Below are positions 590 to 44,701 of a stretch of DNA of 64,000 bases, piece after piece (position 1 is the stretch's first letter; each line of letters starts with the position of its first letter). A program made the position numbers and the translations under genes. Source of the stretch: Eledone cirrhosa (lineage: Eukaryota); the NCBI GenBank assembly GCA_964016885.1, contig OZ024740.1, forward strand, positions 77,562,001-77,626,000. The letters run 5' to 3'. The notes below the pieces were generated by a model. That model made no database searches. It saw nothing but the letters and a program-made list of their open reading frames with translations, and was not told where the DNA came from.

Positions 590-706
590 AGTTTATCCCG
601 GGTTCAATCAGGGGTAACCACAGTATGTAAGGTACTCAATACAAAGCAGAGTATAAATATTTAATATAGAAAAGACTTCTACAGGAATAGAACTGTTTCA
701 TTCCGG
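590..706 (-). mobile_element. PLE pLTR remnant with 3' half of a hammerhead, abutting (TA)n
   Basis: Minus strand reads GAAA-CAG-ttctattc-CTG-TA-gaag (stem III plus GUA site). The CUGANGA half is missing. A TTGAGTACC motif follows, then (TA)n at 539-588. Confidence 0.45.
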
Positions 707-1174
707 AGAAACGTAAACGTAACGTCTACCCACCATATATATATATGGAGGGAGTGGTATGCGTTTACATCTGTATCAGTCTTTATGTCGCGTAATCTAG
801 CAGTCCGACAAAAACAGGATCGACAAAATAAACACAAGGCTTAAAAAGAAACTTAAATCTCTTTAAGGCATGGTCGCAGTCTAATGACTAAAAGCAAGAA
901 AGGAATAAAATAAATAAAATCGTCGTAATTCACTGCGGCTTCATTTGACTAAAACGATTGTTTGTATCTCTCACGCTGTGATTTTACAAATGTAGTACTA
1001 AAGGAAACCTTTATTTGAGAATAATAAAAGAAGTGATGAAAAAATGAAAACTTCAATGTTAACAACGCTGCATATATACCCACATATGATTACATAAATA
1101 CATACATATATGCATATGTACATACATACATGCATCCATACGTTCGTATATACATGCATACATACATACATACT

Positions 1175-1975
1175 AACATCGGGGATATCACCCATGTCAT
1201 CAGCAGCTGCCCAAAGATGTAATCGCGGTACTATCTACCTATGAGGCATGATGTAATGGCCAAAACACTGTACAATGCAGTTCGTAAAAAAGATAGCCCC
1301 GGTAATAAGCACATTAAAAGCTACAGTAATGTGGAAGACATCCATGTACATAATATGAAAGAGTACTGGTGGAATGTTCTAGTAAAAACCACAATAAAAT
1401 GCAGGCATAACAGACCAGATATTATGATATGGGACAGGGAGAAGAAAACATGCACAGTAGTGGAAATTAGCTGCCCAGCAGATGCCAATACAATATCAAA
1501 TATTAGCGAAAAGAAGAATATTTATGCAGAACTGATGAGAAATCTGCAGATACTCCACCCTGATTACACCTTCAGATTTATGCCTGTGATTATTGGGACA
1601 CTGGGGTATGTTAGTAACTGCCTCAATACAAATCTTGAGAAGCTAGGCTTCACAGGAACAGAAAGAACACAACTAGTTAGGAAATTACAAGTACAATCCA
1701 TTAATGGAACAGTAAAAATATGTAAAACACTCCAAAAATGTTGCATCTAATAACTGCATATACACATGTACAGATACAAAGCATATACATATGCACACAT
1801 ACAACTCAAAACATACACATCCACACATACAATAACACCCATATCTACACATGCATGCATACATATCTACCTAGTTGATGTTGTGTAAATTCCAATGAGA
1901 GAGTCTGGTGTCTATGTTAGAAACCGACTCTCTCTATTGGGAAAAAAATTTGTGAAATTATAAAACCAGAAGAAC
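1175..1975 (+). mobile_element. 5'-truncated non-LTR retrotransposon 3' end with restriction-like endonuclease (R4/Dong-like)
   Basis: Reads GDITHVISSCPKM*..RHD (CCHC finger remnant), then ORF 1241-1750 with RHNRPDIMIWD..VVEISCP..K..Y..PVIIGTLG (PD-(D/E)xK REL domain). The 3' UTR follows. Both flanks are TACA-based arrays. Confidence 0.85.
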
Positions 1976-1979
1976 ATTC

Positions 1980-2525
1980 ATACTTGCATACACGCATCTA
2001 TACGTTCGTATATCCATACATACGTGCATACATACATACATACATACATACATACATACATACATACATACATACATACATACATGCATACACACATACA
2101 CACATACATACATACATACATGCATACACACATACATACACACATACATACACGCATCTATACGCTCGTATATTCATACATACATACCTGCATACATACA
2201 TACATACATACATACATACATACATACATACATACACACATACACACATACATACATACATGTATACACACATACATACACACATACATACACGCATCTA
2301 TACGCTCGTATATTCATACATACATACCTGCATACATACATTCATACTTGCATACATACATCTATACGTCCGTATATTCATACATACATACATGCATACA
2401 TACATACATGCATGCATGCATGCATGCATACATACATACATACATACATACATACATACATACATACATACATACATACATACATACATACATACATACA
2501 TACATACATACATACATACATACAT
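1980..2525 (+). repeat. (TACA)n microsatellite with interspersed CATCTATACGYTCGTATATYCATAC-type variant units
   Basis: Direct reading. The variant unit recurs near 1995, 2155, 2295 and 2360, and upstream near 1135. Confidence 0.95.
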
Positions 2526-2709
2526 GATCTTCAAAAGTAGCTTGATAAAACACTTGATTGTTAAGTGGACAGCGTTGATGTCATGAAAGTCATTCAAAGT
2601 CTATTTCTGAAACACCTTAAAATACTGTACATAAGTGACCAGTCCAGGGTGGGTATTGGTCAGTTTATATAGTTCAGCTCACTCCTCTTAGCTCTCCTTT
2701 CACCCTCCA

Positions 2710-2880
2710 CCTTACCATTAAGCCACCAACGCGTCCGCCACCAACTGGTCAACATCATCACTACGTAACCCCAACAGCTGGCCAGGTCAATTGTGTCTCG
2801 CTTTTCCCCCCAGTTCTCAATATTTTTATGACGTCAGTGCTTACATCAGAAGTGTTTTCTAAGTGCAAAAAAATGGCGAA
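2710..2880. promoter_or_regulatory. Candidate promoter-like island (CRE palindrome, YY1-like motif, possible minus-strand ATG|GTAAGG donor)
   Basis: TGACGTCA at 2829-2836 and AAAATGGCG near 2870. Locally CpG-richer and non-repetitive. Minus strand reads GGCTTAATG|GTAAGG near 2717. Confidence 0.25.
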
Positions 2881-41900: not shown

Positions 41901-42480
41901 AACATCGAAGGATTTGTGTCATATTTAGCTTTCAATAGCTGGATATACACTTGCGGTCGCTACTCCATGCAAGTGAAAGCAGTACTCTGTATTAGAGCGG
42001 TTGTGCCTCATCGAAACATCCAACAATAGTTGATATGATCGCCTTGCCACTAGTAGTATGAACCAAATTCACAGTTACTTGATCATTGCCTTATCTACTG
42101 ATATGACATCCTGCTTACCAATGTCGTCGTTTAACCCAGTCAGGATTGGTTTGACAGATTGCCTACCAAGGCCAAAGAGCTCTGTCCGCTCTGGCTTTGA
42201 AATCAGAGTGGTCCCTCTCCTAGACAGATTGCCGACCAAGGCTACCAAATATACACTATATACACTATATACATATTTACACAATTTTTGGATGGCCGTT
42301 GACTCTTATGAGTTCTTCCGCCCTTTGTCAGGTTTTGTTTTTGTCCTGCAGGATGTCCAAAATCACCCTCCTCACCAAGTAAACTTGATGGGGTTGCCGG
42401 TTTAGTCGCCGACGACCCGACCATGCGACAGGTTGTACGGGGTTACATATTACCAGTAGCATTCGAGAGTGGCCTGACAT
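38924..42480 (-). mobile_element. Full-length RTE-clade LINE (APE plus RT), frameshifted, with 13-bp TSD
   Basis: APE: GTLNVQTL, LQEHR, GGVG, CYSPT, GGDFNA, LDYI. RT: KACGLDEIPAE, NYRGITL, QNGFR, GVLQGDTLAP, YADD, FKYLGS, RFAGHC, GRP. AATCAAATACATC at 38911-38923 and 42481-42493. Confidence 0.95.
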
Positions 42481-43014
42481 AATCAAATACATCTTGGGTC
42501 AAATATCCTTCTTGGGTGATGGGACCTAGCTTTCTGCATTGGAACTTCCTTCTCTTACTTTATCAGCCATGATAGTTCTGTAAGTAGAACTCCTCCACAG
42601 AAGGTATTTATTGTCCATCTCGCAGTGAACACACAAAGTAAATTTTCTAAAACAATGTCCGTTTCTGCTCTATTAAGCTTACTTCAATCTACATATTCAA
42701 AACAAGTGCAAAATCATCTCCAATTGCTTCCAACCAACAAGACCGCCGGTTCCGACAAAGTCTTTTCCATTATTCTTAAACAGTGCACTTAAGAGCTTGC
42801 CTCTAATCTCATCAACCCACCTCTCACTATTAGTTACTAGCTCTGTCTCATTCTCTCACGTTCTTTCTCCCCTACTCCCCCTTCCCTTCTTTCTCTCTCT
42901 CTCTCTCTCTCTCTCTCTCCCTCTCTCTCTCTCTCTCTCTCTCTCTCCGGATGTATCCCGATCTTATGGAGGAGACTGCTGTGAGTTTCATTCTTTTGAA
43001 AGGCAACCCTATCT

Positions 43015-43350
43015 CACTCACTAGCAACATCTTGTAGATGATAGAAACAATTATTAGCAACAGTCTTCTCTATAATAAGGCCCCCTTAAAGCTACATCCA
43101 CTGGAGACCTACTCTTTTACATCACACTCTAGAGGGCCCTCGACCGCATGAATTTTTAGTGAAAAAAATGTTGTAGCACTCAACATCAACAAAGAATTCA
43201 ATCATGTCTGGCATGTAGGTATCCTAGAAAAAGTCTACGCCTATGGATTCCATCCGTCTCTCGTCTCTTTGATTGGTGACTTTCTGTCATATGCTGATGG
43301 GGATCTCTCTGACCTACACTTTATCAACTTTGGTATGCCCTAAGCTTCGT
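43015..43350 (+). mobile_element. Degraded CR1/L2/Jockey-group RT fragment
   Basis: STGDLL..VALNINKEFNHVWHVGILEK..YGF..DFLS..INFGMP* corresponds to the ALDISKAFDRVWH..GVPQGS motifs. Confidence 0.65.
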
Positions 43351-43796
43351 ACACATACACCTTCCTAATGTTTGTATGCGTATCTATTTGTCTTTATATA
43401 TATATATATATATATATATATATGTGTGTGTGTGTGTGTGTGTGTGTGTGTGTGTGTGTGTGTGTGTGTGTGTGTGTGTGTGTATATATATATTATATAT
43501 ATATATATATATATATATATATATATATATATATCGTATGGCATAAATTCAGGCTGTTCGCTTTGTTGACAAACAAACGAACAAAGCGGCCGGCGTTATA
43601 ATAAACGTCGACTAAACTGATGCGTGCATATATGTATGTGTACCTGTATGCATATGTGTATATATATATATATATATATATATATATATATACATGCTAC
43701 TGTACGTCTGTATACATATATGTATGTACGTATACATACATACTTACATATATATATATATATATATATATATATATATATATTATATATATATAT

Positions 43797-44469
43797 AATA
43801 TTAAGGAGTCTTGAAACAGAGCTGTCTGTGTCGAACGCTACTGACAAAAACTGTAACGTTTCCACTGAGAAAAATAGAGAAAAATAATTATTTCGTTACG
43901 AAAAAATATTTTATCTTTGATAGCCAAGCTACAATATGTTTATTGCATATAAACATAGAGTATATGATTTCATATGCACTCCTGTTATATATATATATAT
44001 ATATATATATATATATATATATATATATATATATAAATAATATATATATATATATATATATATATATATATATATATATATATAAATAATATATATATAT
44101 ATATATATATATATATATATATATATATATATATTATTTATATATATATATATATATATATATATATATATATATATATATATATATTATTTATATATAT
44201 ATATATATATATATATATATATATATATATATATATATATTATTTATATATATATATATATATATATATATATATATATAACAGGAGTGCATATGAAATC
44301 ATATACTCTATGTTTATATGCAATAAACATATTGTAGCTTGGCTATCAAAGATAAAATATTTTTTCGTAACGAAATAATTATTTTTCTCTATTTTTCTCA
44401 GTGGAAACGTTACAGTTTTTGTCAGTAGCGTTCGACACAGACAGCTCTGTTTCAAGACTCCTTAATATT
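43797..44469. repeat. ~670-bp palindrome: identical ~190-bp arms converging on an interrupted (TA)n core
   Basis: 43797-43986 is the reverse complement of 44280-44469. ORF-track translations 43811(+) and 44455(-) are identical. AAATAA interruptions are mirrored as TTATTT. Confidence 0.92.
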
Positions 44470-44701
44470 TCATCAGAGACAATCACTCAACCGGTACTGG
44501 CTTGGACATAGACTAGAATCTATATAAAGTTGCGTGATGAACATTTACTGGTGTTGTTCATTTGCATAGAGCAAACAGAAAACATTGGCTGGAAATGCTC
44601 ATTTACATATAATACGAATTTGGCTGTTTATAATTAATTGGCAGTAGCACTAAAACAGCATTCGTGCATAATAGAGGTGTATATGAAATGATATTCTATA
44701 T

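What the first reader, a model, noticed from the sequence alone, without database searches (positions are those of the whole stretch)
590..44485. Hammerhead-rich nest of many distinct PLE families, almost all inserted in (TA)n
Seen: about 10 canonical type I hammerheads (10799, 11067, 11396, 15222, 15781, 21767, 29076, 29875, 30132, 36074), four variant-core copies and several halves or degraded copies in ~44 kb. They belong to roughly ten or more sequence-unrelated pLTR types, and most pLTR tails end in (TA)n. Established: PLE pLTRs carry minimal type I HHRs with short palindromic stem III that can cleave as dimers. Inference: (TA)n tracts act as self-renewing landing pads. Each insertion splits a tract, the halves re-expand, and chains such as 7332-11875 and 16685-21922 build up.
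Basis: partly seen in the sequence, partly recalled or inferred. Interest (0 to 1): 0.72.

Follow-up and report, generated by a model that had tools for sequence, protein, structure and literature searches.

The report
Octopus-type Penelope transposon hammerhead debris
This stretch really holds about a dozen hammerhead-shaped RNA motifs at the ends of many families of a known jumping gene that lands in TA repeats, an ordinary and only mildly dense sample of a genome with an estimated 100,000 or more of them; two very abundant families carry altered catalytic letters and likely spread without efficient self-cutting.

Summary
Observation confirmed: all 10 listed sites hold a canonical-core type I hammerhead (one with only a 3-bp stem I, one with an ~80-nt stem II); I add two. 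Four more copies share a CAGAAGA (U4A) core. They sit in the end repeats (pLTRs) of about 20 Penelope-like families; five families have Hydra-clade proteins (RWR, DKT, CxCX5C, no CCHH). In 800 kb sampled elsewhere, 57 of 70 hammerheads have (TA)n within 200 nt downstream (random 20%). Hydra elements with hammerheads and (TA)n targets are published, including one from Octopus. The window is only about 3.5-fold above the genome mean, and a neighbouring bin is richer. Chains through TA tracts are real, but TA is plentiful and re-expansion is neither shown nor needed. Most pairs are opposite-strand fold-backs that cannot form cis dimers. Most interesting: family J has A at core position 4 in 15,495 exact copies against 60 with U, also in full-length elements. 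Family G shows U3-A8 or a broken C3·A8 pair. Cleavage may therefore be dispensable (untested). The scan had already noted these features elsewhere in this genome.

The parts
10649..11172 (.). Family A fold-back: long-tailed arm (-) and short arm (+), both ending in (TA)n
   Evidence: at least 40 genome copies at 99-100% identity
10799..10853 (-). Canonical type I hammerhead, family A, stem III ATATATAT
   Evidence: E 2e-12
11067..11121 (+). Canonical type I hammerhead, family A
   Evidence: E 6e-14
11354..15975 (-). Family B, near full-length Hydra-clade PLE: 3' pLTR 11354-11875, ORF 12840-15043 (broken by a 10-nt deletion near 13750), upstream pLTR 15087-15695, inverted pLTR 15693-15975 (+)
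   Evidence: open 737-739 aa frames in 5 of the 14 other loci fetched
11396..11461 (-). Canonical hammerhead, family B 3' pLTR
15222..15287 (-). Canonical hammerhead, family B upstream pLTR (same-strand partner of 11396)
15781..15846 (+). Canonical hammerhead, family B inverted pLTR
17329..18930 (-). Family J, 5'-truncated Hydra element (endonuclease end 18473-18829) with long-tailed pLTR and an inverted short pLTR at 18829-18930 (+)
17428..17478 (-). Variant hammerhead, family J: CAGAAGA (U4A) core, U17, 5-bp stem III
18860..18910 (+). Variant hammerhead, family J (U4A)
27812..28050 (.). Family J fold-back with two U4A motifs (27922-27972 -, 27976-28026 +)
19185..21923 (+). Family M, decayed Hydra element (RT 19218-19814, EN 19924-21072) ending in (TA)n
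21767..21877 (+). Canonical-core hammerhead with ~80-nt stem II, family M
   Evidence: (E 0.027), pairing read by hand
25700..25779 (-). Hammerhead with weakened stem II, family O
   Evidence: E 6e-6
28327..28369 (-).
29077..29111 (+). Hammerhead with 3-bp stem I, family T; some relatives read CCGAAGA (U4C)
29875..29910 (+). Minimal hammerhead, family W (ACGT stem III)
30132..30205 (-). Canonical hammerhead, family X
36074..36139 (-). Canonical hammerhead, family AB
11207..11256 (-). Family G stub holding only the 3' half of its hammerhead; 16860-16911 is the long tail of the same family
7788..8412 (-). Family D, Hydra endonuclease fragment with the hammerhead deleted in this copy
7332..7761 (.). 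Family C decayed fold-back with two broken hammerheads
8575..9452 (-). Family E pLTR pieces, hammerhead at 8946 with C3 changed to T
9467..10634 (-). Family F 320-nt tandem ending in (TA)n, CTGATGA half-core only; related copy at 35367-36002
590..734 (-). pLTR stub with the 3' half of a hammerhead, ending at (TA)26
30411..31000 (+). [quoted passage not shown]
   Evidence: motif read by hand
43798..44500 (.). Family AH: 229-nt inverted arms facing a long (TA)n, decayed hammerhead at 44476 (-)

Best explanation
The region is a pile of mostly 5'-truncated or folded-back copies of about twenty Penelope-like retrotransposon families, at least five with Hydra-clade proteins, whose end repeats carry type I hammerhead motifs and abut (TA)n because their endonuclease likely nicks TA repeats. 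Shown: the motifs, the families, the Hydra protein signatures, the strand-specific TA ends, and two fixed 3' ends per family about 70-100 nt apart, with divergent pairs nearly always one short and one long end. Inferred: the GIY-YIG endonuclease nicks a TA tract; reverse transcription is primed at a fixed site 20-60 nt past the predicted cleavage site, so the template is uncut or circularised RNA; early termination or inversion gives stubs and fold-backs; and the split tract stays a target, so later families stack up. The local density is the upper tail of a genome-wide load of order 10^5 motifs. Efficient self-cleavage is probably not required for spread, since families J and G amplified with altered cores.
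For: Descriptor and shuffles. Stem I pairs in 20 of 38 distinct motifs when not required, against 2.5 with partners re-dealt. Compensatory changes in 13 of 16 pairs across 13 non-window motifs (the motifs were selected by my descriptor, so partly circular). Hydra signatures RWR, DKT, CxCX5C, CxxC, CxH and no CCHH (defined in PMC8557442 section 11). The protein atlas places the family-B protein among GIY-YIG/RT-type clusters at 0.96-0.98 (a lead only). TA downstream in 57 of 70. Fixed short and long ends; long+short divergent pairs in A 6 of 7, G 11 of 14, J 27 of 32. 50,832 exact matches to one motif class alone, control 142. Family-B and family-J ends also meet TA in runs labelled as other organisms.
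Against: No empty (pre-insertion) site was seen, so TA partly added during insertion is not excluded. Pfam (0 of 6 proteins) and PDB do not recognise the Hydra proteins, and no tree with reference Hydra sequences was built, so the clade rests on motifs. MFE folding gives the hammerhead shape for only some copies, and J and G fold 3 and 8 kcal/mol better in other shapes. TA ends are not PLE-specific: a SINE-like repeat (32751-33049) has TA at one end in 9 of 12 copies. No cleavage or expression data.
Confidence: 0.88

Rival explanations
1. Self-renewing landing pads: insertions split TA tracts, the halves re-expand, and positive feedback builds true hotspots.
For: Two real chains in the window. 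Two-sided tracts are enriched over the whole 800 kb (OR 2.15, P 0.011). The window is about 3.5-fold above the mean.
Against: No excess after within-locus permutation (17 against 13.5, P 0.17) or in the random set alone (P 0.32). Summed flanks (median 40 nt) match length-biased tract size. TA density is not raised here, and 84% of background tracts have no recognised PLE end.
Confidence: 0.3
2. The TA runs are largely products of insertion: the telomerase-related RT or repair slippage writes (TA)n at a short TA nick.
For: Every family ends at TA-containing microhomology in its own sequence, and some copies have very short TA flanks.
Against: Most TA tracts have no PLE end. Several ends abut compound (CA)/(CT)/(GA)-(TA) microsatellites that look older. 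The literature lists (TA)n as the preferred target (PMC8557442).
Confidence: 0.15
3. The U4A (J) and U3-A8/C3·A8 (G) cores are active ribozymes, rescued by their 5-bp stem III and tertiary contacts, so cleavage remains essential.
For: All other core letters and all three stems are kept. A4 is shared by three other organisms' runs. U3-A8 is a known natural covariation (PMC4209133, PMC3088659), and a U4C viroid variant stays infectious (PMC3088659).
Against: J also has U17. 37 of the first 100 listed long G copies carry the unpaired C3·A8 and none carries C3-G8 (counted by hand). Both motifs prefer other folds.
Confidence: 0.35

Closest known systems
Hydra clade of C-terminal EN+ Penelope-like elements (Craig et al. 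2021, PMC8557442), including Hydra-1_Obim of Octopus bimaculoides
   Same: Single RT-EN ORF under 3 kb, RWK-like and DKT motifs, CxCX5C linker, CxxC and CxH, no CCHH, canonical pLTR hammerheads (often with the U·U pair at the base of stem II), (TA)n insertions, tandem and inverted ends, tail on one end only.
   Different: The paper reports a small number of families outside cnidarians; here at least five protein families at 30-55% identity and tens of thousands of copies. Tails are 70-100 nt, not 30-40. Several families share an (AT)4 stem III. Two families have altered cores. The Hydra-1_Obim hammerhead in the supplement matches none of the window's motifs by eye.
Minimal type I hammerheads of metazoan PLEs (Cervera and de la Pena 2014, PMC4209133)
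   Same: Short palindromic stem III, extra base after A9, dispersed single motifs from truncated PLEs, opposite-strand pairs 100-700 bp apart, U3-A8 variant.
   Different: The load here (of order 10^5 in 3.0 Gb) is well above the about 9,000 given for Xenopus tropicalis and about 4,000 for coelacanth. U4A is not among the variants in the parts I read.
Non-LTR retrozymes (Cervera and de la Pena 2020, PMC7229834; Li et al. 2026, 10.64898/2026.07.22.740005)
   Same: Non-coding type I hammerhead repeats likely moved by PLEs; tandem arrays of family K and another family occur in sampled loci (L082, L105); axolotl has up to 120,000 copies.
   Different: The window's motifs are single stubs, fold-backs or ends of coding elements, not head-to-tail hammerhead arrays; the one tandem (family F) has only a half core.

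Membership tests
Hydra-clade PLE | Single ORF, RT then C-terminal GIY-YIG endonuclease, element about 3 kb or less | tested here: met
   737-739 aa open frames for family B in 5 of 14 other loci; 645-aa frame between direct pLTRs 3.26 kb apart for J (L193). Domain identity rests on motifs and the atlas; Pfam gave none.
Hydra-clade PLE | N-terminal RWK-type motif and DKT in place of DKG | tested here: met
   RIRWR/RLRWR and SDKT in B and J; not preserved in the M, D and G pieces examined
Hydra-clade PLE | CxCX5C linker, no CCHH in the endonuclease, CxxC and CxH flanking E and N | tested here: met
   CxCX5C and CxxC in B, J, G, M and D; CxH in B, J, G and D
Hydra-clade PLE | Canonical hammerhead in the pLTR | tested here: met
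   Met for B, M and relatives of D. Not met for J (U4A) and G (U3-A8 or C3·A8).
Hydra-clade PLE | Insertion into (TA)n | tested here: met
   57 of 70 downstream against 20% random; random and flank loci J 7 of 7, G 16 of 16, B 3 of 3
Hydra-clade PLE | Phylogenetic placement with reference Hydra RTs | not tested
   No reference proteins were available as stored sequences
Type I hammerhead ribozyme | CUGANGA / GAAA / NUH core with three stems and covariation | tested here: met
   12 window motifs; 13 of 16 pairs change on both sides across 13 non-window motifs; stem I test
Type I hammerhead ribozyme | Match to an Rfam hammerhead model | tested here: not met
   No hammerhead family among 121 matches at E<=1
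Type I hammerhead ribozyme | Site-specific self-cleavage | not testable with these tools
   Needs a bench assay
Non-LTR retrozyme | Head-to-tail tandem of 150-450 nt units, each with a complete hammerhead | tested here: not met
   The only such tandem in the window (9575-10202, 320 nt) has a half core
Neptune-type PLE (30411-31000) | CCHH motif within the GIY-YIG domain | tested here: inconclusive
   Two cysteines and an H pair read by hand in a frameshifted fragment; no Pfam hit

The most novel reading that the evidence does not exclude
Two sister Hydra families (J and G, about 55% protein identity) became among the most abundant in this genome after losing a working catalytic core (U4A fixed in over 99% of J copies; an unpaired C3·A8 in over a third of long G copies) while keeping the hammerhead fold. 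PLE hammerheads would then act here as structural signals for the RT rather than as cutters, and insertion would proceed from uncut RNA.
Probability: 0.35. Interest if true: 0.62.

Novelty: new member of a known kind. Interest (0 to 1): 0.3.

Why it matters
As a locus it is ordinary transposon debris. As a sample it shows that this genome carries one of the heavier hammerhead loads among those I found reported, that Rfam and Pfam are blind to it, and that it offers matched natural variants (canonical families A and B, U4A family J, U3-A8 against C3·A8 subfamilies of G). Craig et al. state that hammerhead function in EN+ PLEs is unclear, and these variants make that question directly testable. 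Intact family-B frames also give material for the in vitro PLE system that the same paper calls for.

Tried and rejected
Rfam scan: no hammerhead. The repeat finder was swamped by microsatellites. Pfam and PDB gave nothing for the Hydra proteins. Scans for other single-change cores (G3-C8, A3-U8, A6, A9, G5, GAAA changes) gave window counts no higher than shuffles. That call also listed no U4-variant hit in the window, because it required a near-palindromic stem III; the J copies were found from homology and confirmed with a hairpin-tolerant scan. I first took 21767 for a half motif because of my spacer limit; one search corrected this, so my genome-wide estimate (about 165,000; bootstrap 80,000-265,000) omits long-loop and variant families. 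I first took family G for an element with only half a hammerhead; longer copies show a full motif with a ~37-nt loop II and a Hydra ORF. A two-sided tract excess (OR 2.4) was inflated by TA runs inside family P and shrank when these were dropped. Reading family F as a permuted (type II/III) hammerhead did not give consistent stems. Sequencing runs: no RNA holder listed, and only contigs were laid, so there is nothing on expression, cleavage or empty sites. Lünse et al. (RNA Biol, doi 10.1080/15476286.2016.1251002) is not held and may describe further core variants. Searches for a natural U4A hammerhead (20 papers listed each) showed none.
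Full report
Setting. The window is G000:C1:77,562,001-77,626,000 of a 3.0-Gb, 1,796-contig animal genome. I did not identify the species; the repeat landscape looks octopus-like (recalled, not tested). Bases 590-44,485 are a mosaic of microsatellites and transposon pieces.

The hammerheads are real. Rfam found none. A custom type I descriptor found 6 strict and 9 relaxed complete motifs in 1-46,000, against shuffle means of 0.02-0.05; a tenth relaxed hit (36646) used a spurious stem III and was dropped. 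A covariance model built from 13 non-window motifs scored seven window sites at E<=3e-12, 25700-25779 at 6e-6 and 21767-21877 at 0.027. The last has a 7-bp stem I, a palindromic stem III and an ~80-nt stem II region, and its relatives pair well. Site 29076 is complete but has a 3-bp stem I. So all ten are hammerhead-shaped, twelve with my additions. When stem I was not required, 20 of 38 distinct motifs still paired over at least 4 bp, against 2.5 with partners re-dealt. In the 13-motif alignment, 13 of 16 pairs change on both sides (selected motifs, so partly circular).

They belong to Penelope-like elements, mainly the Hydra clade. 11354-15975 is a near full-length element: a direct pLTR pair around a 2.2-kb ORF broken by a 10-nt deletion, plus an inverted pLTR. 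Five of 14 other fetched copies have open 737-739 aa frames at about 98% DNA identity. Proteins of families B, J, G, M and D are 30-55% identical and share the CxCX5C linker and a CxxC motif, and lack CCHH; RWR and DKT are present where the N-terminus survives. These are the diagnostic features in Craig et al. 2021 (PMC8557442; seen: abstract, passages, section 11, supplement search and part 2). That paper already reports canonical hammerheads, (TA)n insertion, inverted 5' copies and one-sided tails, and lists Hydra-1_Obim from Octopus bimaculoides. A fragment at 30411-31000 looks Neptune-like. Among 24 end regions only 4 pairs share short matches, so about 20 types are present.

TA association. 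In 60 evenly spaced 10-kb stretches and 20 flanking ones, 57 of 70 hammerheads more than 300 nt from a locus edge have (TA)>=5 within 200 nt downstream, against 13 of 70 upstream and 19.6% of random positions; many of the exceptions are inner units of tandem arrays. A SINE (0 of 14 ends) and a LINE (0 of 11) show no such bias, but another SINE-like repeat does at one end (9 of 12). Each family ends at two fixed places: A at about 56 or 155 nt past the predicted cleavage site, B 49 or 138, G 17 or 97; J likewise has a short end near 21-25 nt and a long end about 85 nt further. Divergent pairs are long+short in A 6 of 7, G 11 of 14 and J 27 of 32. Because both ends lie downstream of the cleavage site, the template must be uncut or circular RNA (inference; the circular model is proposed in PMC4209133, parts 1-2 of 4 read). 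Family B and J ends also run into TA in contigs labelled as other organisms.

Is it a nest? The descriptor gives 33 motifs in 600 kb of background, i.e. about 165,000 genome-wide (bootstrap 80,000-265,000). The window has 9 where 2.5 are expected (P about 0.03), from 5 clusters, and a neighbouring 46-kb bin has 15. The model gives the same ratio: 8 in 51 kb against 29 in 600 kb (the background includes training copies). One exact pattern class alone, with the (AT)4 stem III, has 50,832 matches against 142 for the reversed control; for that class the window's 7 motifs are about 9-fold above average but come from 4 insertions. TA tracts are no denser here than elsewhere. The window is the upper tail of a genome-wide load, not a distinct structure. 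For scale: about 9,000 minimal hammerheads in Xenopus tropicalis (PMC4209133), and up to 120,000 retrozyme copies in axolotl (PMC7229834, passages). The passages I saw of a recent Octopus vulgaris repeat annotation list Penelope-like families, and its main text has no occurrence of 'hammerhead' or 'ribozyme' (PMC13282606; supplement not read).

Landing pads. The chains 7332-16007 and 16792-21983 exist, and most fold-backs keep TA on both sides, so targets persist. After removing TA runs internal to elements, two-sided tracts were 17 against 13.5 under within-locus permutation (P 0.17), OR 2.15 overall (P 0.011) and 1.56 in the random set (P 0.32). Summed flanks of 19 J fold-backs (median 40 nt) fit ordinary length-biased tracts (28-48 nt). 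Re-expansion is therefore neither shown nor needed; regional clustering cannot be separated from feedback with this sample.

Variant cores. Family J reads CAGAAGA with U17 and a 5-bp stem III. An exact 34-mer occurs 15,495 times with A at position 4, 60 times with U and 96 times with G or C, so U is at mutation background. Both pLTRs of a full-length copy with a 645-aa frame carry A4 (L193), and three other organisms' contigs show no other letter there. Family G has 28,719 exact 3'-half matches, mostly short fold-backs (32 of 41). Of the first 100 of 2,940 long copies, 61 read U3-A8, 37 C3·A8, 2 U3·G8 and none C3-G8 (hand count). U3-A8 and a viroid U4C are known natural variants (PMC3088659, passages and section 8). 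Two searches showed no natural U4A, but Lünse et al. could not be read (its dimer-cleavage result is known to me only through the review PMC6765202, passages). Earlier unreviewed notes of this scan report the same U4A family and similar stacks in this genome; I had found both before looking.

Verdict. What would interest a specialist is the scale and the two successful families with altered cores. Interest 0.3.

Noticed in passing
window 10799-36139; genome-wide: Several unrelated families (A, B, O, X, AB) use ATATATAT as the stem III palindrome, the same sequence as the insertion target; 30 of 82 loose hits. Families with similar stem I could in principle cross-pair.
   Followed up: partly
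L034, L050, L086, L063 and window families A, B, X, AB: A fixed C·C or C·U mismatch at the fourth position of stem II recurs across these families (column 18 invariant C).
   Followed up: no
window 5523-7330: A decayed LINE end (zf-RVT, 5794-6510 -) interrupted by a Tc1/mariner-like transposase fragment (6656-7330 -, HTH_32/HTH_48).
   Followed up: no
window 38925-41918 (-): Frameshifted LINE with APE endonuclease and RT, probably RTE type (recalled label).
   Followed up: no
window 1172-1992 (+): 3' end of a restriction-endonuclease-type non-LTR element (RPD...EIS motif read by hand) flanked by (TACA)n; 3 of 3 background copies end in TACA/CA repeats.
   Followed up: partly
window 50959-60233: 9.3-kb (GTGTG)-type tandem array with extreme strand skew.
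   Followed up: no
window 32751-33049: SINE-like repeat whose left end abuts (TA)n in 9 of 12 sampled copies, so TA targeting is not limited to PLEs.
   Followed up: partly
L082 (7 x 482 nt) and L105 (7 x 310 nt): Head-to-tail hammerhead arrays resembling non-LTR retrozymes; L082 is the window's family K.
   Followed up: no
window 9467-10634 and 35367-36002: Family F has PLE-like two-ended TA termini but only a CTGATGA half core, like the 'HHR_half_core' noted for cephalopod Naiads in the Craig supplement; parent not found.
   Followed up: partly
window 29033-29272; L016, L109: Family T varies at core position 4 (CTGAAGA or CCGAAGA), a further family with a relaxed U4.
   Followed up: no
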